From Enterobacteria phage CHB7, in sequence record MK562504.1: a stretch of 64,000 nt of DNA; one strand, written 5' to 3'. The stretch's first letter is position 1; every line of letters starts with the position of its first letter. Below, in pieces: positions 51,140 to 62,797 of the stretch. The translations under genes and the position numbers were made by a program. The notes under the pieces are model-generated. The model made no database searches. It was not told the origin of the DNA and saw nothing but the letters and a program-made list of their open reading frames with translations.

Positions 51140-51400
51140 AATCTTACTCTCTATATAGTTATATAGTACTATATAGTATCTTAGTCCCTTAGCAGTGAGT
51201 CTCTATAGCCCTCTGTATAACCCTTCTAAATAGCCCTCTATAAAGCCCTCTAATCAATCCTCTTCCAAACCTATACAATCACCTTAACCATCTCTTCATA
51301 GCCCCTTAGAAGCCCCTATACCCATCTTAATCTCTAGGTAAATGATAGTACCCTCTATAGGGTGTTCACTAGGTTCTACTAATCCTCTATATAGACTGTT
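51140..51400. repeat. cluster of short TATAG-containing repeats (CTCTATAG / CCCTCTATAA / TATATAGTA)
   Basis: Three tandem TATATAGTA units at 51150-51180; GAGTCTCTATAGCCC, CCCTCTATAAAGCCC, CCCTCTATAGGGTG, CCTCTATATAGACTG further on. Confidence 0.6.
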
Positions 51401-51699
51401 TTAGCTAACTAAACAGGTATCACCTTCTAAGGCTTATCCTACAAGGTCTAACACGGTACTAACAAGGTATCTTATAAGCCTGTATTTACCTGTTTTATAC
51501 AGAATACTATATAGATATTTATGCAATTCTTTAGTATTTCGTTTAGAAATATCTAAACTCATAAATTTTTATAAAATAGAACTGTCAAGTCACTTTTTAG
51601 GTGTTATGAAGGAACTCAAAAATATCTGTCTAGGATGTATATCTGCTTGGTAGCCCTTAACATCGCCCTTACAAGTCCTTTGCAAAATCTTAAAATATC

Positions 51700-52210
51700 A
51701 TTAACAATTTCTTAACAACTCTCTCAAGCTCTTAACATCTCTTCAGAGTTCTTAACAGATTCTTAACAGGACTAACAAGGGTGTAACAAGTTTCTAACAA
51801 GTGCTACATAGTCTTTACAGAATCTTAACAGATTGCTAACAAGTGCTAATTAGTTAATTTTAAAGGGTTATTTTGTTAAGATAATTAACAAGTTCCTAAC
51901 AAGTGTTTAACCTTTTTAACAAGCTGTTAACATGGTCACTATCTCTGGTCTTATCGTTCCCTTACCTTCTTAGTGATTCTCTAAACATCCTCTTAAAAGC
52001 TCTCTATAGCTCTATACAGCCTCTTTATAGCCCCTTGTAAGGTAACTATAGCCCAAGTAACTACAAAGGGTTTTATAGGGCTTTCTAGGGGCTTTAAAGG
52101 GTATGCCAAAGAGTCTAACAAGAGTTTAACAAGGTCTTAACAATGATTTAACATACCCCTAACAAGGGTAACTATGCAGGAGTTGTTAAGAATTTGTTAA
52201 GAAAATGTTA
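51700..52210. repeat. iteron-like array of more than 20 TAACA(A/G) words
   Basis: Direct copies at about 10-12 bp spacing over 51701-51924 (CTTAACA, CTAACAAG, GTAACAAG); second cluster 52105-52155; inverted copies (TTGTTAAG) 52173-52205. Confidence 0.7.
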
Positions 52211-52225
52211 AGGGGGCTAGCATAT

Positions 52226-52291
52226 ACGTAACTTTTAAGCCCCTTTTACGTAACTTCATAGCCCCTTTTACGTAACTTTTAAGCTACTTTT
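52226..52291. repeat. 3 x 22 bp tandem repeat (ACGTAACTTTTAAGCCCCTTTT family)
   Basis: Units 52226-52247, 52248-52269, 52270-52291 with 2-4 substitutions each. Confidence 0.7.
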
Positions 52292-52327
52292 AAGCCCCTA
52301 TAACATACTTTTTAGTGACTATCAATA

Positions 52328-52670
52328 GGATTCGATAGAGTCCTATCTTATAGGGGATTGTTTAGATATTCACAAGATACTAGCCAGCATATAAGCTTAT
52401 ACCCTTATAAGATTCTTTTAAGGCTCTAGGAAGCTCTATAAAGGGCTTTAAAGAGTGGGTTAATATGATTGGTTAAGTTGAGATGATAAGCCGTTATAGA
52501 GCGTTATAGAGCGTTTAAGGGATTGCCCTTCCCTTTCGGGTTATGGGCTTATATTTAAGGGATTGGTAACAATACCAATTAGTTGATTTGATAAGAGAAT
52601 ATAGAGTAAACTATAGAGTTATTGTTCTAAATGTCTGGAAAGGGATTGTATAAGGATTCGATAGAGTCCT
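52328..52670. repeat. dispersed 17 bp repeat GGATTCGATAGAGTCCT (2 copies)
   Basis: Copies at 52328-52344 and 52654-52670; near-palindromic core. Confidence 0.6.
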
Positions 52671-52684
52671 GTCTCATAGACGTT

Positions 52685-52707
52685 AAAAAGCCCCATTTAA
52701 GGGGCTG
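52685..52707 (-). terminator. rho-independent terminator ending the small-gene array
   Basis: Minus-sense AGCCCC-TTAAAT-GGGGCT followed by TTTTT. Confidence 0.6.
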
Positions 52708-52747
52708 TTAAGGTATCTGGGGCTATTTGCCCCGATGCGGCGTCTTA

Positions 52748-52999
52748 TTAGTCATTGAAGCCGTTTTTGTTGTAGTAAAGAGTGATAATAGAATCACCCC
52801 AATAGTAAGTTGTAACGCCGTATTTTAAGACTTCCTGTTTTGTTTCTTTCCAGAAATTTTCTGACGGTTGATAGTCCTGAATAGTTGCTTTCAGACACAT
52901 TTCAATCATTCCGAAAGCATCACCAGTGCCTACCATGTCAAATTTAACATCTAAAACGTGAAAACCAAAGTTGTTAACAGTTGCGCGGATAGTTGCCAT
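52748..52999 (-). CDS. array gene 1, hypothetical
   Basis: 83 aa; preceded by type A cassette (GNRA hairpin + GGAGA RBS). Confidence 0.5.
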   Translation of the reverse strand: MATIRATVNNFGFHVLDVKFDMVGTGDAFGMIEMCLKATIQDYQPSENFWKETKQEVLKYGVTTYYWGDSIITLYYNKNGFND

Positions 53000-53064
53000 T
53001 TTTAGAATCTCCAGTTTAGGATTTTTGTTTAGTGGGGAAGTTTCCCTCCCCGTTGATAAGTACT

Positions 53065-53592
53065 TTACAGACTTTCGATTAACTGGTCAAGCCCTTTTTG
53101 CATATCTTTTAAGGATTTTTCATGTAATTTTATCATGTCGTTGATTGCTTGCCCTAACTGAAGAGAATAATCACCGTCTTTTGTTTCACTTGTATAGATG
53201 TTCTCTACATCATACAGATTAAAAGGATTGCACCCTGTACCCATTGCCTGAGTCCCAAAAGCCAACGGCATGATATACAAATTAAGAGACTTTATAGAGC
53301 GCTCATAAGCCATTTTATAGCGGTTAATCTCTTCTTTTGATGACTTGATGCAATGCTCGTAAAGTTCTGCAACTATAGCCATAAAATCCGGTAAAATCAT
53401 TGCAACTGCTTTCATAAAATTGTTTGCTGTTACAAGTTTTACATTTGGGCGATGAATGTAATATTTTTTATCACTTCCCTTTGTGATGACTGCAAAGAGT
53501 TTAGCATTACAACGGAATTCGAAAGTGTCTTTTACTGGTTTGGTCATTACGTCTTTTGAGCGGATAGTGTTAATTGCAGTGAACTTATTCAT
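53065..53592 (-). CDS. array gene 2, hypothetical
   Basis: 175 aa; stop codon embedded in conserved GTAAAGTACTT word. Confidence 0.5.
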   Translation of the reverse strand: MNKFTAINTIRSKDVMTKPVKDTFEFRCNAKLFAVITKGSDKKYYIHRPNVKLVTANNFMKAVAMILPDFMAIVAELYEHCIKSSKEEINRYKMAYERSIKSLNLYIMPLAFGTQAMGTGCNPFNLYDVENIYTSETKDGDYSLQLGQAINDMIKLHEKSLKDMQKGLDQLIESL

Positions 53593-53596
53593 CTTG

Positions 53597-53692
53597 ATTC
53601 TCCAGTTTAGGATTTTTGTTTAATGGGGAAGTTTCCCTCCCCGTTGATAAGTACTTTACTTGTTTTGATTTGCCTTTGCAAGCTTTTTATTG
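53597..53692. repeat. about 95 bp near-identical dispersed repeat (type A cassette + flank), copy 1
   Basis: Near-identical to 57052-57147; includes the 3' end of array gene 3. Confidence 0.7.
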
Positions 53693-53793
53693 AAAAAATA
53701 ATCTTGAATCTCACTTGCTATCAGCAGACCAAAAGGAATAACCACTGATACAATCATGCCACACAGAATAGGGTTTTTAATTACTTCCATCAT
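53656..53793 (-). CDS. array gene 3, small membrane peptide (45 aa)
   Basis: ATG with cassette RBS; hydrophobic ILCGMIVSVVIPFGLLIA; below track length cut-off. Confidence 0.4.
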   Translation of the reverse strand: MMEVIKNPILCGMIVSVVIPFGLLIASEIQDYFFNKKLAKANQNK

Positions 53794-53991
53794 TTTAGAA
53801 TCTCCAGTTTAGGAAAGCGTTATTGCTTGAGATAAACTATATAGACTTTGATGAGTCATTGCAAGTAATTCTTAAGCTTATCTATAAAGAATCTTTTAAG
53901 TGATTCCTTTTAGATAAACCCCCTCGAACAAAGTTACCAATGTCAAGGGGTATTGTCAAGATAATTTTTAATGTTTTTTGTAAGTCATTGA

Positions 53992-54333
53992 TTAGCTTAT
54001 AAAGATTTTTTCAGGCTTGACATAGGTTAATCTCTGTGATTTTAGTAAGTCACTCCAGATTAATCCCGCTATGTGACTATAACCCTTTTCACGTAGTTGT
54101 TTCATTGTCTCCGCTCTAGTTTCAAAGCGGCTTGCGTAGTATTCAGTGTTAAGGGTTGTTTTGTTTCCTTCGTTATCTGTATGCACAATTTGCATCACTT
54201 GAAAGGGGCTTACATCTTCTCCCCTGTTCCATTGCTCAAAGTACTTGAGACACTGCATAGGTTTCATTTTGTCGTTAACTTGGGTAGACCATGACGAATT
54301 TTCTTTATCAGTGATAATTGTTACATAGGCCAT
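53992..54333 (-). CDS. array gene 4, hypothetical
   Basis: 113 aa. Confidence 0.5.
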   Translation of the reverse strand: MAYVTIITDKENSSWSTQVNDKMKPMQCLKYFEQWNRGEDVSPFQVMQIVHTDNEGNKTTLNTEYYASRFETRAETMKQLREKGYSHIAGLIWSDLLKSQRLTYVKPEKIFIS

Positions 54334-54384
54334 TTTCAGATTCTCCAGTTTAGGATTGTTGGTAAAGCTCTTTATCTGGGGCTT

Positions 54385-54413
54385 AAGATACTAGCTTTTA
54401 AACCCCATGTAAA
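54385..54413 (-). promoter_or_regulatory. cassette type B promoter (TTTACA-17-TATCTT) overlapping a 9 bp stem hairpin
   Basis: Minus-sense TTTACA 54408-54413, -10 54385-54390; hairpin GGGGTTTAA/TTAAGCCCC spans spacer and -10. Confidence 0.5.
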
Positions 54414-54418
54414 GCACT

Positions 54419-54616
54419 TTAATAAATTCTATCCATCAGATTATTCACGGCCATAATTGCATTATCTTTGAAGTGTGGATGACTGCTATTCTGTGAGAAT
54501 AGTATTTCTCCATTGTATACTATTTTTAGGTCTATCTTTGAACCTTCCATGTTAAGGTTACACTCTACACCTTTTAAACACCACAAGGTAGAAAGTTTTT
54601 GCATCAGTGATAACAT
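54419..54616 (-). CDS. array gene 5, hypothetical
   Basis: 65 aa. Confidence 0.45.
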   Translation of the reverse strand: MLSLMQKLSTLWCLKGVECNLNMEGSKIDLKIVYNGEILFSQNSSHPHFKDNAIMAVNNLMDRIY

Positions 54617-54666
54617 TTTAGATTCTCCAGTTTAGGATTGTTGGTAAAGCTCTTTATCTGGGGCTT

Positions 54667-54695
54667 ATCTTATCTAACTATAAACCCCATGTAAA
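54667..54695 (-). promoter_or_regulatory. cassette type B promoter (TTTACA-17-TAAGAT)
   Basis: Minus-sense TTTACA 54690-54695, TAAGAT 54667-54672; stem GGGGTTTAT/ATAAGCCCC keeps pairing through base changes relative to the 54385 copy. Confidence 0.5.
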
Positions 54696-54707
54696 GCACT
54701 TTATTAG

Positions 54708-54929
54708 TTATTTGTAGTAATAATATGTAAACTCATTTATCAGGCTTCCATCCTCATCATTATACTGCTTATGACTAGCCAGATAACCGCCATTAGCTAG
54801 AATTTCATCAATCAACTTTTTAGCGTCATCGTTGGGAATCCTAACAGGTTTACTAAACGGCTGTAAATAGGTACGACGAACATTTGAGAATTTAAAATCA
54901 ATGGTTTTTACGTTAAGAACTTGCAACAT
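54708..54929 (-). CDS. array gene 6, hypothetical
   Basis: ATG 54927-54929 placed directly after the cassette RBS; track ORF extends from TTG at 55007. Confidence 0.45.
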   Translation of the reverse strand: MLQVLNVKTIDFKFSNVRRTYLQPFSKPVRIPNDDAKKLIDEILANGGYLASHKQYNDEDGSLINEFTYYYYK

Positions 54930-55007
54930 TTTTTGAATCTCCAGTTTAGGATTGTTGGGATGTTTCCCGTTGATGAATACTTTACTTTCTTGCGTTTTCA
55001 GTGCCAA

Positions 55008-55238
55008 CTACTTTTCTATAAGAATCTCATATTCACCATTCACACTATCAAAGTAAATACCTTCATCATCTTCTGACTTATAGTAACATTGGATATCATC
55101 CGATGTTGGGTAGTCTTGCCTTGCTATCTGACAGGCAACAATAGCATTATTTTCGCTACCTGTAAACTCTTCTAAACCTTTAAAGTCACATTGTGAACCA
55201 TTGCAGATAGATAAGATAAGATAGATTGTTGTAAGCAT
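55008..55238 (-). CDS. array gene 7, small secreted/lipoprotein-like protein
   Basis: N-terminal MLTTIYLILSIC hydrophobic leader; 76 aa. Confidence 0.45.
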   Translation of the reverse strand: MLTTIYLILSICNGSQCDFKGLEEFTGSENNAIVACQIARQDYPTSDDIQCYYKSEDDEGIYFDSVNGEYEILIEK

Positions 55239-55301
55239 CTTTTAAGCCTCTTGTAAGCCCCTATGCGGGGCTTTTCTAGTGAACTGGTATGATTTTATGG
55301 T

Positions 55302-55859
55302 TTATGCTGTTAAGTCGCTTATAGCCGTTTCTGTTACGTTGAATTGCATTGTGTCAAAGATATCACAATATACATTGCTCATCTCATCGCTACGTTGGAT
55401 TATTGTCACAATGTTGCGTAATTCATCCGGTATATAACCCAAGTTCCTATTATTCAGGTTAGGGACAAAGAAAGGCGCATACATAGCATTAAATTCAGTT
55501 GTGTAAACCTTTTTAATCCATTCTTTATCGAAATACTCTGTAAAGCTTGCTACGTCGCTCATATTTTCACAACTCCAATCATCTTGCAACTCTTCGTCTG
55601 GTATGTCAAGCTCTAAAATAACTATTTTTTGCGACTTCATTTGATAAGCCGCTGTGACACTTGCACTATCAAGAGCATTTTTAATACCCTCATCCGTGAC
55701 TTGTTCGTTGTCCATTTCTTCAACGTCATAGAACTTGCTTACAGGGTAGACATAAAAACATCCATCCATATCTGAGCAATTCCAAGCGCCTGATGGCTTA
55801 TCGCCACCATTTAACAGGTTTACAAAGTTTTCTTGAGTAGTACCGTGAAAGCATTTCAT
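55302..55859 (-). CDS. array gene 8, hypothetical
   Basis: 185 aa. Confidence 0.5.
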   Translation of the reverse strand: MKCFHGTTQENFVNLLNGGDKPSGAWNCSDMDGCFYVYPVSKFYDVEEMDNEQVTDEGIKNALDSASVTAAYQMKSQKIVILELDIPDEELQDDWSCENMSDVASFTEYFDKEWIKKVYTTEFNAMYAPFFVPNLNNRNLGYIPDELRNIVTIIQRSDEMSNVYCDIFDTMQFNVTETAISDLTA

Positions 55860-55909
55860 TTTAGATTCTCCAGTTTAGGATTGTTGGTAAAATTCTTTAT
55901 CTGGGGCTT

Positions 55910-55938
55910 ATCTTATCGAACTATAAACCCCATGTAAA
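55910..55938 (-). promoter_or_regulatory. cassette type B promoter (TTTACA-17-TAAGAT)
   Basis: Minus-sense TTTACA 55933-55938, TAAGAT 55910-55915. Confidence 0.5.
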
Positions 55939-55943
55939 GCATT

Positions 55944-56192
55944 TTATTTAGTTTTCTTTGTAAAGATTAGTTTAACTGCAACAGTGGGCAACTCTTCAAT
56001 ACTTGTGAACAAAGTCACCTTTTGAGTCTTGACATTATAGCCATTTTTTGCAGCGTATGCCGTAAACCGATTCACAATATAGCTGTAAGTTTTTGCCGTA
56101 TTATCTGGCATATGGTATAAATAGGGCTTGCCTAAATTTTGTGGTTGTGTTAATAGTCGGCAAGTGTCTGGAACGTTTAAGTAATTCAGCAT
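55944..56192 (-). CDS. array gene 9, hypothetical
   Basis: 82 aa. Confidence 0.45.
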   Translation of the reverse strand: MLNYLNVPDTCRLLTQPQNLGKPYLYHMPDNTAKTYSYIVNRFTAYAAKNGYNVKTQKVTLFTSIEELPTVAVKLIFTKKTK

Positions 56193-56280
56193 TTTAGAAT
56201 CTCCAGTTTAGGATTTTTGGGGCTTGCTTACCTCGTTGATGAGTACTTTAATCTATCTAAAAATCATTGTCAAACTATTT

Positions 56281-56682
56281 TTAAAGTTCTGCGTAAATTA
56301 CATCACAGATATCTTGAAAATCTTGCTTTGTCAAGTTGCGCTGTAACCAAGTTGCGAAAAAGTCAGCAATTGCAAAATTTGCATCGAACTCAATAGATAG
56401 CCACACTTTAACAGCAAATCGGAACATTTTCAAGTCTAGTTCTTTATTCATAACTTTTGATTTGGCTAACATGTCAGCCATTTCATATTGTGCGCCATCA
56501 AGTGTACTACCATTTGCAACGTTTGCAAGTGAATTTTTAATGTTTTCTACATCTAAAATCACTCCCTGAATTTTACCGATAATGTTATGCAATGTTTCAT
56601 CAGGTGCGGTTGATGTAATGGCATTGATGCGGTTTACAGTCAAACGTGCTTTCAGGATTGCAACTTCTTTATTGTTAGCCAT
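56281..56682 (-). CDS. array gene 10, hypothetical
   Basis: 133 aa. Confidence 0.5.
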   Translation of the reverse strand: MANNKEVAILKARLTVNRINAITSTAPDETLHNIIGKIQGVILDVENIKNSLANVANGSTLDGAQYEMADMLAKSKVMNKELDLKMFRFAVKVWLSIEFDANFAIADFFATWLQRNLTKQDFQDICDVIYAEL

Positions 56683-56735
56683 TTTTAATACTCCAGTTTA
56701 GGTTGGTTGTTTGGTAAATCTCTTTATCTGGGGCT

Positions 56736-56764
56736 ATCTTATCAGCCTGATAACCCCATGTAAA
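56736..56764 (-). promoter_or_regulatory. cassette type B promoter (TTTACA-17-TAAGAT)
   Basis: Minus-sense TTTACA 56759-56764, TAAGAT 56736-56741. Confidence 0.5.
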
Positions 56765-56772
56765 GCAATTTA

Positions 56773-57045
56773 TTAAACTAAGTGTAATTTTTTACCGTTA
56801 ACAATGATGTAACTTACGCCGCTATTACTATAAACATCTTGATAAATTCTGCGTAACTTGCCCAAATAACGTACTTTCCAAGACGTTGGAATCTTTTTTC
56901 CATAGCCCGTAGCAGTTTTTTGAAGCCCTGCCAGTTGCCAATCTAAGATATGTTGTTCTGCTTGCAACTCTTCAAAGTTTAAAACCCCGTCAATGTAAAC
57001 TTTTAAGGTAACGTTTAAGGTACGGCCATTGTTAGTGGTATACAT
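56773..57045 (-). CDS. array gene 11, hypothetical
   Basis: 90 aa. Confidence 0.45.
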   Translation of the reverse strand: MYTTNNGRTLNVTLKVYIDGVLNFEELQAEQHILDWQLAGLQKTATGYGKKIPTSWKVRYLGKLRRIYQDVYSNSGVSYIIVNGKKLHLV

Positions 57046-57051
57046 GTTTTG

Positions 57052-57147
57052 ATTCTCCAGTTTAGGATTTTTGTTTAGTGGGGAAGTTTCCCTCCCCGTT
57101 GATAAGTACTTTACTTGTTTTGATTTGCCTTTGCAAGCTTATTTTTA
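57052..57147. repeat. about 95 bp near-identical dispersed repeat (type A cassette + flank), copy 2
   Basis: Matches 53597-53692, including a remnant of the array gene 3 3' end. Confidence 0.7.
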
Positions 57148-57474
57148 AGAATTTTTTCTTTTGTTTATTTCTTGTGCAACAACTGGATAATAGTCTGTTA
57201 AATCAGCCACTTGCAATGACTCTAACAGTACATTATAATCATTGATTAGTTCAAAATCACCAGATAAAACATCATTGATTTGGTATGTTTTAGCCTTAAA
57301 TCTGAAGCTCATCTCTAAACGTTGCAATTGTGTACCATCTAAACGCTCTAAAAAGCCCCTGACAAGGTTTATTTTAACTTCCTTAGTGGTTATCTCATTT
57401 ACTTTGTTTAGCGCCTTATAAGCCTTGTAAAGCGCTACAATTGAGACCAGCAAAGCAACACCAGAGATTAACAT
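57145..57474 (-). CDS. array gene 12, membrane-anchored hypothetical
   Basis: N-terminal MLISGVALLVSIVALY hydrophobic helix. Confidence 0.5.
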   Translation of the reverse strand: MLISGVALLVSIVALYKAYKALNKVNEITTKEVKINLVRGFLERLDGTQLQRLEMSFRFKAKTYQINDVLSGDFELINDYNVLLESLQVADLTDYYPVVAQEINKRKNS

Positions 57475-57764
57475 TATGATTTCCCCTTGTGAAATAATTT
57501 ACCAGTATGACTAATTTCAAAAGAGTCTATCATGTCTTTTGTAGACTTAACAGAACTTTTATTAGTGTTATCATAAATATCAACCTGAAGCAAAGGTTTT
57601 TTGTATTCTTTACAAAAGTTCCATACACAAATAACAACTTCTTTACCATTGATTTTTCCATGATACCATTCCGTAATATCATGAGTTCGGCGCATAGATT
57701 CTATGAAGTTGATATCTTGTAATAGTTTACTGAGTTTAGAACGTACATGAGCGGCAATAAACAT
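57474..57764 (-). CDS. array gene 13, hypothetical
   Basis: 96 aa; stop overlaps gene 12 start. Confidence 0.5.
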   Translation of the reverse strand: MFIAAHVRSKLSKLLQDINFIESMRRTHDITEWYHGKINGKEVVICVWNFCKEYKKPLLQVDIYDNTNKSSVKSTKDMIDSFEISHTGKLFHKGKS

Positions 57765-57805
57765 TTTAGAATCTCCAGTTTAGGAAAGCTCTTTATCTGG
57801 GGCTT

Positions 57806-57835
57806 ATGGTATCAAGCTTTTAAGCCCCTTGTAAA
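57806..57835 (-). promoter_or_regulatory. cassette type B promoter variant (TTTACA-18-TACCAT)
   Basis: Minus-sense TTTACA 57830-57835, TACCAT 57806-57811. Confidence 0.4.
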
Positions 57836-57840
57836 GTACT

Positions 57841-58002
57841 TTATGAAATAATTTTTATAACTTCTTTTAGTGTGATGTTTTCGCCATTTGTCAAGGCTAA
57901 ACATTTGTTACCAGTGCATGACAAGTAACTAAATGAGACTTTACCAGTTTTAGAAAATCCGTCAAGCCCTTTGTAAGTAATGATAGAGTTTTCTTTTATC
58001 AT
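57841..58002 (-). CDS. array gene 14, small hypothetical (53 aa)
   Basis: ATG 58000-58002; stop directly follows GTAAAGTACT word; below track cut-off. Confidence 0.35.
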   Translation of the reverse strand: MIKENSIITYKGLDGFSKTGKVSFSYLSCTGNKCLALTNGENITLKEVIKIIS

Positions 58003-58013
58003 TTGTCAAGCCC

Positions 58014-58220
58014 TTAAACATCATAATAATAAATTGCAGTATGTCTAATATGCTTTCTTGTGTGAATTGTCAAGTAACAATCTGATTTGATTGATGTATT
58101 TACATACGTATCATAATCTTTCTCTGATATACGTTGCCACACATCACAAATTAGCATATAAAAACGACGATGTTTTGTTTCAGTATTATCTACAATCATT
58201 AATTCACGTTGATATAACAT
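58014..58220 (-). CDS. array gene 15, hypothetical
   Basis: 68 aa; first gene after the array leader. Confidence 0.45.
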   Translation of the reverse strand: MLYQRELMIVDNTETKHRRFYMLICDVWQRISEKDYDTYVNTSIKSDCYLTIHTRKHIRHTAIYYYDV

Positions 58221-58418
58221 TTTTGAATCTCCAGTTTAGGAAGTGGGCTTGATTGCCCGTCTGATGCAAATACTAAATAACTTTGTTTTGCAGGTCAAGC
58301 AAATTTTTAAAAATATTTTCAGGAATTGCCAGAGAGGAACGGGCACACGACTACCACAAAACATAGCACAAATCAAGAATTATTTTTCAGTTCTCTACAG
58401 ATTTTTCTCTTGACTTTT

Positions 58419-58454: not shown

Positions 58455-58471
58455 ATGGCTCTATCTACCTA

Positions 58472-58647
58472 CCTGCACAATTCTAAAATGATTTTTCTTG
58501 CCCGACACTCGCCGGGACTGCACGTTTTGAAAATGAAAAAACTCTTTGGAGTCCACCTGCACAAATTGAAAATGAATTTTCCCTTTGGAGTTCAAAATTT
58601 TCTCTACAGATTTCTGTCCAGACTTTTACCTGCACAATTCTAAAATA
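58472..58647. repeat. 3 dispersed direct repeats CCTGCACAATTCTAAAAT(G/A)
   Basis: Copies at 58472-58490, 58556-58574, 58629-58647; contain the reverse complement of the cassette word CATTTTAGAAT. Confidence 0.6.
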
Positions 58648-58690
58648 AAAAAGCCCTCCTTACCTGAAAAACTTACCAGATAAGAAAGGC
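58641..58690 (-). terminator. rho-independent terminator (10 bp stem, 18 nt loop)
   Basis: Minus-sense GCCTTTCTTA / TAAGGAGGGC stem followed by TTTTTTATTTT. Confidence 0.55.
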
Positions 58691-58721
58691 TTAGCCTATT
58701 GTGAATATGCTACAGAGTCTC

Positions 58722-59504
58722 TTAGTTCTTTGCAGCTAAGAACTTGATATTAGCAATGCCTACAATTGCTTCAGCATCTTTCTCATTTGCTGCAAGAATG
58801 TACACATCAGGTTCACTTCCAAATGTCACTGCACGTTGCATACTACCTTTCAACGGCGGGGTAACTTGAGCGTTACTTAGAGACATTCTCTCAACCGGAG
58901 GGTTACTCCGATGTACCTTGTTCTTACGATGCCTGAAGAGGGTAACTCCATCTTCGTTGACAACGGCTACACCTGCAAAGTATTGTGGCTCACTGTGATT
59001 ACCCCATGTTGACAGAGTATTAAACATTGCCTCTTCAAACACGTAAAGGTAAACATCAACATCTTTCAGGATGTGATTCATAATCACCACAACAGCTTTC
59101 GGGTCAAGTCCACCAATCCCTGCACCAATCATTGGAAGACCAACTTTCTTCAGTTGATTTACTTTGCAGTACTGGTTAAGACTCAACAAAGCACTCTCAA
59201 GAGCATCGTAACGGGCATCTTTACCAGTCTTCAACTGAGTATACAGGTTAGCAATACGTCCTTGTTTAAGACGTGCTACAGAGAGTTTACCAAGCAGTTT
59301 CTGGCAAGGTTTATGCTCTCTTCCTCCTGCTACACGGTAGACTTCAGCATCGGTTTCATAGGCTTTTGGGTAGCCTTTAGAAATCTTATCAGCAATACCT
59401 GCACCCATCAGGTTCATGCAGTTACAACCGTGACCGATGATATCAAACTTACCTTTTTCAAAGTCTGCGAAGATATCACCTTTGATGACTTTTACAATAC
59501 CCAT
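58722..59504 (-). CDS. macro-domain protein (TARG1/DarG-like ADP-ribosyl hydrolase fold) with C-terminal unknown domain
   Basis: N-terminal KGDIFADF...DIIGHGCNCMNLMGAGIA and later GLPMIGAGIGGLDP match macro-domain signatures; 260 aa. Confidence 0.65.
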   Translation of the reverse strand: MGIVKVIKGDIFADFEKGKFDIIGHGCNCMNLMGAGIADKISKGYPKAYETDAEVYRVAGGREHKPCQKLLGKLSVARLKQGRIANLYTQLKTGKDARYDALESALLSLNQYCKVNQLKKVGLPMIGAGIGGLDPKAVVVIMNHILKDVDVYLYVFEEAMFNTLSTWGNHSEPQYFAGVAVVNEDGVTLFRHRKNKVHRSNPPVERMSLSNAQVTPPLKGSMQRAVTFGSEPDVYILAANEKDAEAIVGIANIKFLAAKN

Positions 59505-62711: not shown

Positions 62712-62770
62712 TGGTTCTCCTGTTTAGTTCAACATGCAAGCAATTATACACTACTCTGCACAAAACACAA

Positions 62771-62797
62771 ATAAAAAAGGCTGCCGAAGCAGCCCTT
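62771..62797 (-). terminator. rho-independent terminator
   Basis: Minus-sense GGGCTGC-TTCG-GCAGCCT followed by TTTTTTATTTG. Confidence 0.7.

What the first reader, a model, noticed from the sequence alone, without database searches (positions are those of the whole stretch)
52748..58220. Array of 15 small genes, each preceded by one of a few conserved promoter/hairpin/RBS cassettes
Fifteen short minus-strand ORFs (45-185 aa, no recognised domains, several with TM or signal segments) are separated by 60-100 bp spacers from a small set of families. Type A (3 near-identical copies): stop codon inside GTAAAGTACTT, a GGGGAGG-GAAA-CTTCCCC hairpin with GNRA tetraloop, then TCCTAAACTGGAGA-N6-ATG. Type B (5 copies): TTTACA-17-TAAGAT promoter-like element whose spacer and -10 sit inside a 9 bp stem hairpin, then the same RBS word. 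In type B the hairpin loop and stem bases differ between copies while pairing is kept (TTAA/TTAA versus TTAT/ATAA), which argues for a selected structure. One cassette plus about 45 bp of flanking coding sequence is duplicated nearly verbatim (53597-53692 and 57052-57147), so cassettes appear to move with gene fragments. This looks like a recombination-prone early-gene cassette array, a plausible reservoir of host-takeover or anti-defence genes.
Basis: seen in the sequence. Interest (0 to 1): 0.8.

Follow-up and report, generated by a model that had tools for sequence, protein, structure and literature searches.

The report
Promoter–hairpin–RBS cassettes shuffling phage early genes
A Felix-O1-like phage carries 15 small genes of unknown function, 12 of them behind a repeated unit of host-type promoter, RNA hairpin and fixed ribosome-binding word, and relatives show that genes are gained, lost and duplicated at these units, as already described for "PeSL" cassettes in T4-like phages.

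Summary
The window is a Felix-O1-like (Ounavirinae) phage; one array protein is identical to a phage CHB7 protein. On the minus strand, 52748-58220 holds 15 small ORFs. Twelve are preceded by a cassette ending in the invariant word CCTAAACTGGAG (12 copies, all in the array; 0.24 expected).

Both cassette types are sigma-70-like promoters. Type A is TTGnnn-17-TAAAGT followed by a GGGG..CCCC hairpin. Type B is TTTACA-17-TAnnnT embedded in a hairpin. The type B 9-bp stem is the top of a roughly 21-bp interrupted helix that shows compensatory changes across 62 distinct copies from four genera.

Relatives show single-gene gain, loss and duplication with junctions inside chimeric cassettes. The window's array is itself a mosaic of three lineages.

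This matches the PeSL cassettes of T4-like phages. Parts were noted before: direct repeats in Felix O1 and wV8, and an "SAS-like 26-bp repeat" in Mordin. I found no paper linking them to promoters, RNA structure or shuffling.

Early timing is weakly supported. Protein functions are unknown except one predicted ADP-ribosyltransferase fold. I rate it a new member of a known kind, of moderate interest.

The parts
52748..58220 (-). Array of 15 small ORFs, g1-g15: g1 58014-58220 (68 aa); g2 57841-58002 (53); g3 57474-57764 (96); g4 57145-57474 (109); g5 56773-57045 (90); g6 56281-56682 (133); g7 55944-56192 (82); g8 55302-55859 (185); g9 55008-55238 (76); g10 54708-54929 (73); g11 54419-54616 (65); g12 53992-54333 (113); g13 53656-53793 (45); g14 53065-53592 (175); g15 52748-52999 (83). 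In some searches these are labelled w2-w16.
   Evidence: Every ORF matches a PHROG of unknown function and none matches Pfam. Orthologues lie in the same order in 9 relatives.
58218..58298 (-). Cassette upstream of g1: TTGACC-17-TAGTAT promoter, small hairpin GGGC-AATCAA-GCCC, RBS word 58229-58240, ATG.
   Evidence: It is 100% identical to the phage mistaenkt cassette.
57762..57843 (-). Type B cassette g2>g3: TTTACA-18-TACCAT inside helix GGGGCTTA..TAAGCCCC, with the short linker GCTTT|CCTAAACTGGAG. This is the mosaic breakpoint and the site where three genes present in relatives are missing.
   Evidence: CM hit 57790-57836, 64.5 bits; MFE -18.3, z -3.2.
57043..57136 (-). Type A cassette g4>g5: TTGCAA-17-TAAAGT, ACTTATCAAC, hairpin GGGGAGG-GAAA-CTTCCCC, RBS word 57055-57066.
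   Evidence: D3; MFE -16.1, z -3.2.
56680..56772 (-). Type B cassette g5>g6: TTTACA-17-TAAGAT, stem GGGGTTATC/GATAGCCCC, with the T-A variant of the outer-helix pair.
   Evidence: 59.2 bits; MFE -23.4, z -4.6.
56190..56273 (-). Type A variant g6>g7: TTGACA-17-TAAAGT. Its hairpin has decayed (GAGGTAAGCAAGCCCC, where Silverhawkium has GGGGCAAGCAAGCCCC).
   Evidence: MFE -4.8, z -0.1.
55857..55946 (-). Type B cassette g7>g8: TTTACA-17-TAAGAT, with the A-T variant of the outer-helix pair.
   Evidence: 70.9 bits; MFE -20.2, z -5.5.
55255..55273 (-). Hairpin AAGCCCC-GCATA-GGGGCTT between g8 and g9. There is no RBS word, no promoter match and no T-run.
   Evidence: MFE -13.4, z -2.7. An annotated 'Rho-independent terminator' lies at the equivalent intergenic position in wV8 (between gp21 and gp22); orthology of the flanking genes was not tested.
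54927..55007 (-). Type A variant g9>g10: TTGGCA-17-TAAAGT, short hairpin GGGA-AACA-TCCC.
54614..54703 (-). Type B cassette g10>g11.
   Evidence: 70.6 bits; MFE -23.0, z -5.6.
54331..54421 (-). Type B cassette g11>g12; the -10 position reads TATCTT.
   Evidence: 67.9 bits; MFE -22.9, z -4.3.
53791..53864 (-). Cassette upstream of g13, inside the 198-nt spacer 53794-53991: TTGCAA-17-TATAGT plus the RBS word, with no GGGG..CCCC hairpin.
53590..53681 (-). Type A cassette g13>g14. The -35 TTGCAA and the spacer lie inside the last 11 codons of g13, and the g13 stop codon is the TAA of TAAAGT.
   Evidence: (D3).
52997..53090 (-). Type A cassette g14>g15, a chimera. Its 5' half is the promoter at the end of g14; its 3' half matches the cassette that in relatives follows an extra 87-aa gene.
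   Evidence: identity to Silverhawkium drops to 80% only here.
52685..52733 (-). End of the array: hairpin GGGGCAAATAGCCCCAGATA (52714-52733), which resembles a type B 3' half without a promoter, then the terminator-like AGCCCC-TTAAAT-GGGGCT followed by TTTTT (52685-52706).
   Evidence: At the same position Felix O1 has terminator t23 and Moogle has an annotated terminator.

Best explanation
The array is the variable small-gene region of a Felix-O1-like phage. Twelve of its 15 genes are separate expression modules, each led by a repeated 75-95-bp cassette with three functional parts.

1. Promoter. Each cassette has a promoter for the host sigma-70 RNA polymerase. Type A is TTGnnn-17-TAAAGT. 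Type B is TTTACA-17-TAnnnT.

2. Sense-strand RNA structure.
- In type A, a GGGG..CCCC hairpin starts 10 nt after the -10. It would therefore sit at the 5' end of the cassette's own mRNA, where a stabilising role is inferred.
- In type B, a helix of about 21 bp encloses the promoter from -35 to about +15. It can only exist in transcripts reading through from upstream. There it would attenuate, process or 3'-protect them. This role is inferred and the choice between those functions is open.

3. Translation-initiation word. The word CCTAAACTGGAGA plus 6-8 nt and ATG is invariant and specific to the array.

The cassettes share 14-45-nt identical stretches but flank unrelated genes. They therefore act as portable homology. 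Recombination between non-allelic cassettes deletes, inserts, duplicates or re-heads whole genes while leaving each gene with a working promoter and RBS.

What is shown: the sequence architecture, the selection for pairing, the chimeric cassettes at indel junctions, and the mosaicism. What is inferred: promoter activity, transcription start sites, the role of the helix, and expression timing.
For: Source and spread. Best DNA matches are Ounavirinae of the genera Mooglevirus, Suspvirus and Felixounavirus. g8 is 100% identical to CHB7_gp117.

Promoters.
- All 71 distinct non-B cassettes from 10 phages have TTGnnn, exactly 17 nt, then TAnnnT.
- In 36 distinct type B cores, CTTTACA and the T, A and final T of the -10 are invariant while the other loop positions vary.

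RNA structure.
- 33 of 36 distinct type B cores keep 9 of 9 stem pairs through changes such as G-C to U-A, and U-A to A-U, G-C or C-G.
- On 62 distinct extended copies, 94% of cells pair, against 89.4% in shuffles (0 of 500 reach the observed value) and at most 57% when partners are slid. The covariation score is 0.115 against 0.042.
- RNAalifold predicts the three-segment helix on its own. One outer pair reads GC 43, UA 14, AU 1, GU 1.
- The five window copies fold at -18 to -23 kcal/mol, z -3.2 to -5.6.
- A U.G wobble at one pair in 51 of 62 copies places the structure on the sense strand.

Specificity. The covariance model finds 75 hits of 57-72 bits, all on the array strand, and none in the other 58 kb of the window. 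In 2.9 million viral contigs, type B occurs only in contigs of about 54-94 kb (about 30 distinct contigs); several have exactly the lengths of Felix-O1-like genomes fetched here, e.g. Moogle 87,999, wV8 88,487 and M7 84,694.

Shuffling.
- Gene content varies one gene at a time, and orthologues carry different cassette types in different phages.
- g14>g15 is a chimera with its crossover in the shared TCAACGGGGAGGGA.
- KPS64 lost g11 between two type B cassettes.
- Silverhawkium and Moogle join the type A cassette after g9 directly to g12.
- Michonne has a tandemly duplicated 85-aa gene with a cassette-to-cassette fusion, and KPS64 has a duplicated type A cassette.
- The window array is 94-100% mistaenkt/SUSP2-like, then 96-100% Silverhawkium-like, then 96-100% 3HA14/Sf13-like, then Silverhawkium-like again.

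Precedent. PeSLs of T4-like phages have the same parts, including stem-loops between -35 and -10, overlapping the -10, or downstream of it, and GGGG..CCCC stems. Their promoter and terminator activity and their recombination were shown experimentally.
Against: - No transcript data exist for this phage group: literature searches found none. Promoter use, start sites and timing are therefore untested.
- The Felix O1 RT-PCR timing is mixed.
- The helices are not followed by a U-tract, so classical intrinsic termination is unlikely.
- Two of the four mosaic breakpoints in the window lie inside genes (g8 near 55575, g12 near 54225). Cassettes are therefore not the only crossover sites, only those that change gene content.
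- Breakpoints in intergenic cassettes are also what selection for intact genes would leave behind.
- Cassette copies are paralogues and orthologues, so the covariation counts overstate the number of independent events.
Confidence: 0.7

Rival explanations
1. The cassettes are only conserved regulatory leaders (promoter plus RBS), inherited with the genes or homogenised by gene conversion. They do not promote rearrangement. Junctions fall in them only because recombinants that cut genes are lost.
For: Allelic exchange also occurs inside genes. About 80% of the array is coding, so selection alone would push surviving gene-content junctions into the spacers.
Against: Crossovers map to the identical stretches shared by non-allelic cassettes and produce clean chimeras. 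Michonne has a tandem duplication with a cassette-to-cassette fusion. The same gene sits behind type A in one phage and type B in another. Recombination between PeSLs was shown directly in T4-like phages.
Confidence: 0.2
2. The type B helix is chiefly an RNase III processing signal. As in the T7 early region, it would cut read-through polycistronic RNA between genes and leave a protective 3' hairpin. This is compatible with the best explanation and is one of its sub-options.
For: The helix has about 21 bp in three segments, with a conserved 2x2 internal loop and a 1x1 mismatch. It lies directly after the upstream stop codon and is conserved with compensatory changes. The resemblance to T7 RNase III sites is from my own knowledge and was not tested.
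Against: No cleavage data exist. Type A cassettes have only 4-8-bp hairpins, too short for RNase III. PeSL stem-loops behaved as terminators or attenuators in a reporter assay.
Confidence: 0.3
3. The inverted repeats are DNA operators for a dimeric phage repressor that shuts off the early promoters. TAAAGnnCTTTA palindromes overlap the -35 and the +1 region of type B and the -10 of type A.
For: TAAAGNNCTTTA with at most 1 mismatch occurs 15 times in the window against 4.9 expected, and 10 of those flank the five type B hairpins.
Against: - Where the flanks vary, each palindrome breaks while pairing between the flanks is kept (G-C to A-T and T-A, with a G.T intermediate).
- Stems change sequence while keeping pairs.
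- G.U wobbles make the structure specific to one strand.
- The 10 flanking matches are not independent, because they belong to repeated cassettes.
Confidence: 0.08
4. The invariant word around the Shine-Dalgarno sequence is the functional core. It would be a start-associated sequence recognised by a trans-acting factor (a translational repressor, a nuclease or a ribosome-associated factor) that co-regulates all array genes. The promoters and hairpins would be secondary.
For: The 12-mer is invariant in about 150 copies across three genera while the linkers and hairpin loops vary. It is absent from the RBS of the other roughly 75 genes in the window. Erwinia relatives have a different but equally fixed word, AACCCTTAyAAAGGAATC. 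A possible SD mini-hairpin (UCC-UAAACU-GGA) has the variants CCU-UAAACU-AGG and CCUU-AYA-AAGG.
Against: No candidate factor was identified. A loose test for such SD hairpins is also passed by 36 of 56 other genes in the window. Concerted evolution plus selection for an efficient, unstructured initiation region could explain the conservation.
Confidence: 0.25

Closest known systems
PeSL (promoter-early stem-loop) cassettes of T4-like phages (Arbiol et al. 2010, PMC2839356; Comeau et al. 2014, PMC4122927)
   Same: Repeated intergenic units of about 100 bp in a region of small ORFans. The order of parts is the same: upstream stop codon in AT-rich sequence, sigma-70-like promoter with N17 spacer, GGGG..CCCC stem-loop (placed between -35 and -10, overlapping the -10, or downstream of it), then SD and ATG. 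G-T pairs occur in the stems. They are associated with indels, replacements and duplications between close relatives. The PST/T4 promoter consensus TTTACW-N17-TAYWAT resembles type B.
   Different: The phage subfamily is different (Ounavirinae, not T4-like), and sequence homology was not shown. The cassettes here carry an invariant 12-26-nt RBS word. The type B stem extends to a helix of about 21 bp that pairs the -35 region with the transcribed leader. Promoter or terminator activity and mini-circles were not tested here.
Repeats already recorded in Felix-O1-like genomes
   Same: These are the same elements. The Felix O1 paper lists 57-bp direct repeats CTTTACATGGGGCTTAAAAGTCTGTAAAGTAAGCCCCAGATAAAGAGCTTTACCACT (type B) and 39-bp repeats TTGACACTGG...ACATCAAC (the type A promoter) between genes 15-21. 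The wV8 GenBank record annotates DR_1 to DR_9 on them. The Mordin announcement reports a 26-bp repeat CCAACAATCCTAAACTGGAGAATCTA upstream of 8 genes and calls it SAS-like, 'role unknown'.
   Different: Those reports list repeats only. In the literature I could search, none identifies the promoters, the conserved RNA helix, the two cassette architectures or the link to gene shuffling.
Start-associated sequences (SAS) and extended SAS of Cluster K mycobacteriophages (Pope et al. 2011, PMC3203893)
   Same: A fixed word of about 13 nt, including the SD, lies just upstream of many start codons. About half of them have imperfect inverted repeats immediately upstream. The consensus is clade-specific and the function is unknown.
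   Different: The authors found little support for an mRNA hairpin in ESAS. Here compensatory changes support one. SAS are scattered over temperate siphovirus genomes, not concentrated in one array, and no embedded sigma-70 promoter or shuffling role was described.
RNase III processing hairpins of the T7 early region (from my own knowledge; not tested)
   Same: Intercistronic hairpins of about 20 bp with internal loops, lying right after stop codons in an early polycistronic region transcribed by host polymerase.
   Different: T7 sites do not contain promoters and are not repeated recombination substrates. Cleavage here is purely hypothetical.
Integron gene cassettes (attC)
   Same: Small genes of varied or unknown function, each bounded by a structured repeat. 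Gene-by-gene gain and loss occurs in a one-directional array.
   Different: No integrase or site-specific recombinase was seen. The cassettes carry their own promoters. Junctions look like homologous crossovers in shared sequence.

Membership tests
PeSL cassettes | Sigma-70-like early promoter (-35, about 17 nt, -10) in the intergenic repeat | tested here: met
   71 of 71 distinct type A/other cassettes have TTGnnn-17-TAnnnT. In 36 distinct type B cores, CTTTACA and the T, A and final T of the -10 are invariant. This is a sequence match only; activity was not tested.
PeSL cassettes | Stable stem-loop, typically GGGG..CCCC, placed within, overlapping or just downstream of the promoter | tested here: met
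   Type B has its stem between -35 and -10, overlapping the -10. Type A has its stem downstream of the -10. Pairing is conserved with compensatory changes.
PeSL cassettes | Upstream stop codon in an AT-rich stretch, with SD and start codon at the 3' end | tested here: met
   Spacers read TAA(A/T)-rich ... GGAG-N8-ATG.
PeSL cassettes | Clustered in a hyperplastic region of small ORFans and associated with indels or replacements between close relatives | tested here: met
   Gene map, chimeric junctions, duplications and mosaic map.
PeSL cassettes | Stem-loop terminates or attenuates transcription, and the promoter is strong in vivo | not testable with these tools
   Needs reporter assays. No U-tract follows the stems.
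PeSL cassettes | Recombination between neighbouring cassettes yields mini-circles | not testable with these tools
   Needs inverse PCR or long reads from infected cells.
PeSL cassettes | Host genome is a T4-like phage, or there is sequence homology to T4-type PeSLs | tested here: not met
   The window and all relatives are Ounavirinae. Type B occurs only in contigs of about 54-94 kb, several with exactly the lengths of Felix-O1-like genomes fetched here. I therefore file this as an analogue in another lineage, not as a homologue.
SAS/ESAS (Cluster K mycobacteriophages) | Fixed word including the SD, 3-8 nt upstream of many start codons | tested here: met
   12 of 12 exact copies in the window and about 150 in relatives. 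The Mordin authors drew the same parallel.
SAS/ESAS (Cluster K mycobacteriophages) | 17-bp imperfect inverted repeats without evidence for an mRNA hairpin; sites scattered over the genome | tested here: not met
   Here the repeats covary as an RNA helix, and all copies lie in one 5.5-kb array.
Rho-independent terminator | GC-rich stem-loop directly followed by a U-tract | tested here: not met
   The terminator scan flags no minus-strand site inside 52748-58220. The stems are followed by AGATAAAG or ACTAAAC. Only the array end (52685-52706) has a T-run.
RNase III processing site | About two turns of dsRNA, often with an internal loop; cleaved by RNase III | tested here: inconclusive
   The geometry fits for type B (about 21 bp with a 2x2 loop). 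Cleavage cannot be tested. Type A stems are too short.
ADP-ribosyltransferase fold (g8 only) | ART beta-sandwich core with catalytic H-Y-E or a related triad | tested here: inconclusive
   [not shown]

The most novel reading that the evidence does not exclude
The cassettes may be more than PeSL look-alikes. The promoter-enclosing helix of about 21 bp and the clade-specific invariant SD word could form a dedicated post-transcriptional control layer. In that layer, read-through RNA would be cut or stabilised at each helix, and all array mRNAs would be switched off together by a factor that reads the word. The same units would serve as an integrase-free cassette-capture system that circulates counter-defence or host-takeover genes, such as the predicted ADP-ribosyltransferase g8, among Ounavirinae of Escherichia, Salmonella, Shigella, Citrobacter and Erwinia.
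Probability: 0.15. Interest if true: 0.7.

Novelty: new member of a known kind. Interest (0 to 1): 0.45.

Why it matters
Felix-O1-like phages are widely used for Salmonella and E. coli typing, biocontrol and therapy, yet their transcription programme is essentially unknown. The Felix O1 paper could not say how its many genes are transcribed.

Recognising 12 tandem host-type promoters, each tied to a conserved RNA structure and a fixed RBS, gives a concrete and testable map of the variable gene region. It also explains why this region differs gene by gene between otherwise similar phages. It extends the PeSL modular-shuffling idea beyond T4-like phages, which suggests a general solution among large lytic phages.

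On the practical side, the cassettes are natural landing pads for engineering and a marker for the accessory-gene region where host-range and counter-defence functions are likely to sit. They are also repeats of the kind that can break genome assemblies; I noticed that several GenBank records begin or end inside this array, but did not test why.

Tried and rejected
- Intrinsic terminators. No U-tracts follow the stems, and the scan finds no minus-strand terminator inside the array.
- DNA palindrome or operator reading of TAAAGnnCTTTA. It is enriched, but variants break the palindromes while keeping pairing between the flanks.
- Flanking 13-15-nt 'direct repeats' around the type B stem as target-site duplications of a tiny mobile hairpin. 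They are better explained as the two arms of the outer helix.
- SD mini-hairpin as an array-specific feature. My loose criterion is also met by 64% of other genes, so it stays a weak note.
- Extended complementarity of the RBS word to the 16S rRNA 3' end. By inspection, only GGAG pairs. This rests on my own knowledge and no tool was run.
- Function of the proteins. Pfam finds nothing, PHROGs gives only unknown-function families, and PDB sequence searches are empty for g8 and g14. The g14 model matches only generic coiled-coil hairpins.
- Transcriptome literature for Felix-O1-like phages. None was found.
- Realignment by the covariance model. It did not fix the register of the 1-nt-shorter stem class, so the tool's counts for the two innermost pairs are underestimates. 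The end-anchored count is the better figure.
- A search for RegA- or RegB-like regulators.

Full report
**Source and context**

The 5.6-kb region matches 244 phage records. All informative ones are Ounavirinae: Shigella phage Silverhawkium at 94.5% over 55% of the query; Sf13, Sf14, Sf19 and 3HA14 at about 84%; then Suspvirus, Citrobacter Mooglevirus and Felixounavirus. The 185-aa protein g8 is 100% identical to CHB7_gp117 of Enterobacteria phage CHB7, on a contig of 87,998 bp.

The array corresponds to Felix O1 ORFs 15-23. It is bounded upstream by the homologue of Felix O1 terminator t13 (window 58651-58692) and downstream by the homologue of t23 (window 52685-52706). A Macro-domain protein (58722-59504) lies just upstream.

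**Checking the observation**

- There are 15 minus-strand ORFs of 45-185 aa between 52748 and 58220. None has a Pfam domain, and all belong to PHROGs of unknown function.
- The word CCTAAACTGGAG occurs 12 times in the 64-kb window. All copies are on the minus strand, inside the array, and 6-8 nt before an ATG. Chance expectation is 0.24.
- Three genes lack a cassette: g2 (11-nt spacer), g4 (start overlaps the g3 stop) and g9 (hairpin only).

**Both cassette types are promoters**

A TTGACA-like hexamer (TTGCAA, TTGACC, TTGACA or TTGGCA) lies exactly 17 nt upstream.

Across the window and nine relatives, all 71 distinct cassettes that carry the RBS word and are not type B have TTGnnn-17-TAnnnT. 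The hairpin always begins 10 nt after the -10. With a start site about 7 nt after the -10 (inference), type A mRNAs would begin with a 5'-proximal GGGG..CCCC hairpin.

The -35 and spacer often lie inside the last codons of the upstream ORF. g13 and g14 stop at the TAA of TAAAGT. In relatives g4 does too, and it ends in the same peptide (..LAxxNQNK) as g13. The '45 bp of duplicated coding sequence' is therefore simply the upstream half of the type A promoter.

In 36 distinct type B cores, CTTTACA and the T, A and final T of the -10 are invariant, while the remaining loop positions vary. That is the pattern expected of a working promoter.

**The type B structure is larger than reported and is selected**

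- Seventy-five type B copies (36 distinct cores) were collected from the window and 12 loci of four genera, including the Erwinia Kolesnikvirus phages. Of the 36, 33 keep all 9 stem pairs and 3 keep 8. Changes include GGGG/CCCC to GGTG/CACC, and U-A to A-U, G-C or C-G at the stem top.
- The sequences flanking the stem, AAAGTGCTTTACAT and AGATAAAGAGCTTT, also pair. This gives a helix of about 21 bp with a constant 2x2 internal loop and one mismatch. It joins the -35 region to the first roughly 15 transcribed nucleotides.
- RNAalifold predicts this three-segment helix without guidance. One outer pair reads GC 43, UA 14, AU 1, GU 1, and one copy shows the G.U intermediate.
- On 62 distinct copies, 94.0% of cells pair. 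Shuffles give 89.4% (0 of 500 reach the observed value) and slid partners give at most 57%. The covariation score is 0.115 against 0.042.
- The five window copies fold at -18 to -23 kcal/mol, with z from -3.2 to -5.6.
- Frequent U.G pairs would be A.C mismatches on the other strand. The structure therefore belongs to the sense strand, which means RNA.
- Because the type B promoter's own start lies 3' of the upper stem, the complete helix can form only in transcripts that read through from upstream.

A caveat applies to the covariation counts. The copies are related to one another, so the counts overstate the number of independent events. I see at least two independent events at the outer pair and several at the stem top.

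**Specificity and spread**

A covariance model of the type B core scores 57-72 bits on exactly the 75 known copies, all on the array strand. It finds nothing else in the window.

BLAST finds type B in 287 phage records and type A in 247. All informative ones are Ounavirinae of Escherichia, Salmonella, Shigella, Citrobacter and, for type B only, Erwinia. A pattern scan of 2.9 million viral contigs finds type B only in contigs of about 54-94 kb (about 30 distinct contigs), several with exactly the lengths of Felix-O1-like genomes fetched here.

Erwinia phages keep the type B promoter and helix but use a different fixed RBS word, AACCCTTAyAAAGGAATC.

**Evidence for shuffling**

Gene order is conserved, but gene content differs one gene at a time:
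- The window lacks three genes (126, 85 and 170 aa) that relatives have between g2 and g3. It also lacks an 87-aa gene that they have between g14 and g15.
- Silverhawkium lacks g10 and g11.
- KPS64 lacks g11.
- Moogle lacks g7, g10, g11 and g13.
- Michonne has extra genes.

Orthologous genes carry different cassette types. g12 is behind type B in the window and behind type A in Silverhawkium and Moogle. g10 is behind type A in the window and type B in Michonne. g8 is behind type B in the window and type A in Moogle.

Junctions are chimeric cassettes:
- The window's g14>g15 cassette has the g14-end promoter joined to the 3' half of the relatives' cassette that follows the 87-aa gene. The switch falls in the shared TCAACGGGGAGGGA.
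- KPS64 joins the g10>g11 hairpin to g12 through the identical stretch of about 44 nt, CCCCAGATAAAGAGCTTTACCAACAATCCTAAACTGGAGAATCT.
- Silverhawkium and Moogle join the type A cassette after g9 to g12 at the RBS word.
- The window's g2>g3 cassette has the hairpin of the mistaenkt cassette that follows g2, together with the RBS-proximal part belonging to g3.

Michonne has a tandem duplication of the 85-aa gene with one cassette fused directly to the next (...GGAGAATCTAAAATG|CTTTACATGGGG...). KPS64 has a duplicated type A cassette.

The window's array is itself a mosaic:

| Window range | Closest lineage | Identity |
|---|---|---|
| 58300-57850 | mistaenkt / SUSP2 | 94-100% |
| 57800-55600 | Silverhawkium | 96-100% |
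| 55550-54200 | 3HA14 / Sf13 | 96-100% |
| 54200-52650 | Silverhawkium | 98-100% |

Two of the switches lie inside orthologous genes (g8 and g12). The two that change gene content lie in cassettes. Cassettes are thus the places where non-allelic joins occur, but they are not the only recombination sites.

**Comparison with what is known**

The closest described system is the PeSL of T4-like phages. It has an AT-rich stretch with the upstream stop codon, a sigma-70-like promoter with N17 spacer, a GGGG..CCCC stem-loop in any of five positions relative to the promoter (most often between -35 and -10 or overlapping the -10), and then SD and ATG. PeSLs cluster in hyperplastic ORFan regions. Their promoter and attenuator activity was shown in reporters, and recombination between neighbouring PeSLs produces indels and mini-circles. 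Every sequence-level defining feature is met here. The lineage is different and no homology is shown, so I file this as an analogue and a new member of the kind.

Parts of the element were already recorded:
- The Felix O1 paper lists the 57-bp and 39-bp direct repeats, without giving them a function. It says that how transcription proceeds is unknown.
- The wV8 record annotates DR_1 to DR_9 on these elements. The wV8 paper does not discuss them.
- The Mordin genome announcement reports the 26-bp RBS repeat as 'reminiscent of SAS', with role unknown.

Cluster K SAS/ESAS share the fixed start-associated word and upstream inverted repeats. Their authors, however, found little support for an RNA hairpin.

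**Function of the helices: inference only**

No U-tract follows the stems, so classical termination is unlikely. The options are:
- attenuation, as measured for a PeSL stem-loop;
- RNase III-type processing, for which the geometry of about 21 bp with an internal loop fits (this resemblance rests on my knowledge of T7);
- 3' protection of the upstream message.

Type A hairpins would instead cap the 5' end of their own mRNA.

**Timing and gene function**

In the Felix O1 RT-PCR, ORFs 16, 20, 21 and 22 peak at 5 min, but 17, 19 and 23 peak at 25 min. Several structural genes are also listed at 5 min. 'Early' is therefore plausible but weakly supported.

**Verdict**

The element is best described as a PeSL-type promoter/stem-loop/RBS cassette system in Felix-O1-like phages. 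What this analysis adds is that:
- type A is recognised as a promoter;
- the promoter-enclosing helix and its covariation are described;
- chimeric junctions are mapped at nucleotide level;
- the mosaic structure of the array is mapped;
- g8 is a candidate ADP-ribosyltransferase.

Interest is moderate.

Noticed in passing
[not shown]
   Followed up: partly
window 58722-59504 (-): A 260-aa Macro-domain protein (Pfam PF01661, E 5e-8; PHROG 'phosphatase') lies directly upstream of the array. An ADP-ribose-binding or hydrolase domain next to an array that holds a predicted ADP-ribosyltransferase may be a functional pair.
   Followed up: no
window 58471-58654 (- strand reading); also 62756-62779; Erwinia phage L011 2988-3448: Four copies of a roughly 25-nt motif, (A/T)TCATTTTnnAATTGTGCAGGT, spaced 40-85 nt apart. 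They lie between the strong terminator (58651-58692) and the first array promoter, next to a C-rich run CCCCTCTCCCCCTCTTACTCCCCCTCTCCCC. A similar fourfold repeat (CATTTTCAATTTGTGCATAG) sits at the same place in Erwinia relatives. They could be binding sites or unusual promoters.
   Followed up: no
window 51200-52450: Dense short repeats phased at about 11 bp (TTAACA..., AGCCCCTnTA...) lie just downstream of the array terminator. The GenBank record of relative mistaenkt starts about 470 bp beyond the last array gene. This may be the genome terminus or packaging region, or an origin.
   Followed up: no
RBS word, e.g. window 53009-53020; L003, L010, L011: The fixed word can form a tiny hairpin that pairs the SD with an upstream anti-SD-like CC(U): UCC-UAAACU-GGA. 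Felix O1 and wV8 have ten copies of the variant CCU-UAAACU-AGG, and Erwinia phages have CCUU-AYA-AAGG. The pattern is suggestive, but 64% of other genes in the window pass a similar loose test.
   Followed up: partly
window 52714-52733 (-): GGGGCAAATAGCCCCAGATA, just after g15, looks like the 3' half of a type B cassette (stem plus AGATA) without a promoter or RBS. It may be a decayed cassette left by a past deletion.
   Followed up: no
window 56190-56273 (-): The type A variant before g7 has a decayed hairpin (GAGGTAAGCAAGCCCC; MFE -4.8, z -0.1). The 99.6%-identical Silverhawkium region has an intact GGGGCAAGCAAGCCCC, so the hairpin can be lost without losing the gene.
   Followed up: partly
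relatives' GenBank records (table): Several deposited genomes begin or end inside or beside this array: Sf15 ends in it, Sf16 starts in it, and ESh20, mistaenkt and EcSzw-2 start within about 1 kb of it. Either the repeated cassettes break assemblies or the physical terminus is nearby.
   Followed up: no
homologues of g14: All full-length homologues of the 175-aa g14 carry a precomputed Pfam tag, PF26821.1. The local Pfam copy did not report it for g14. It is probably a recent family of unknown function.
   Followed up: no
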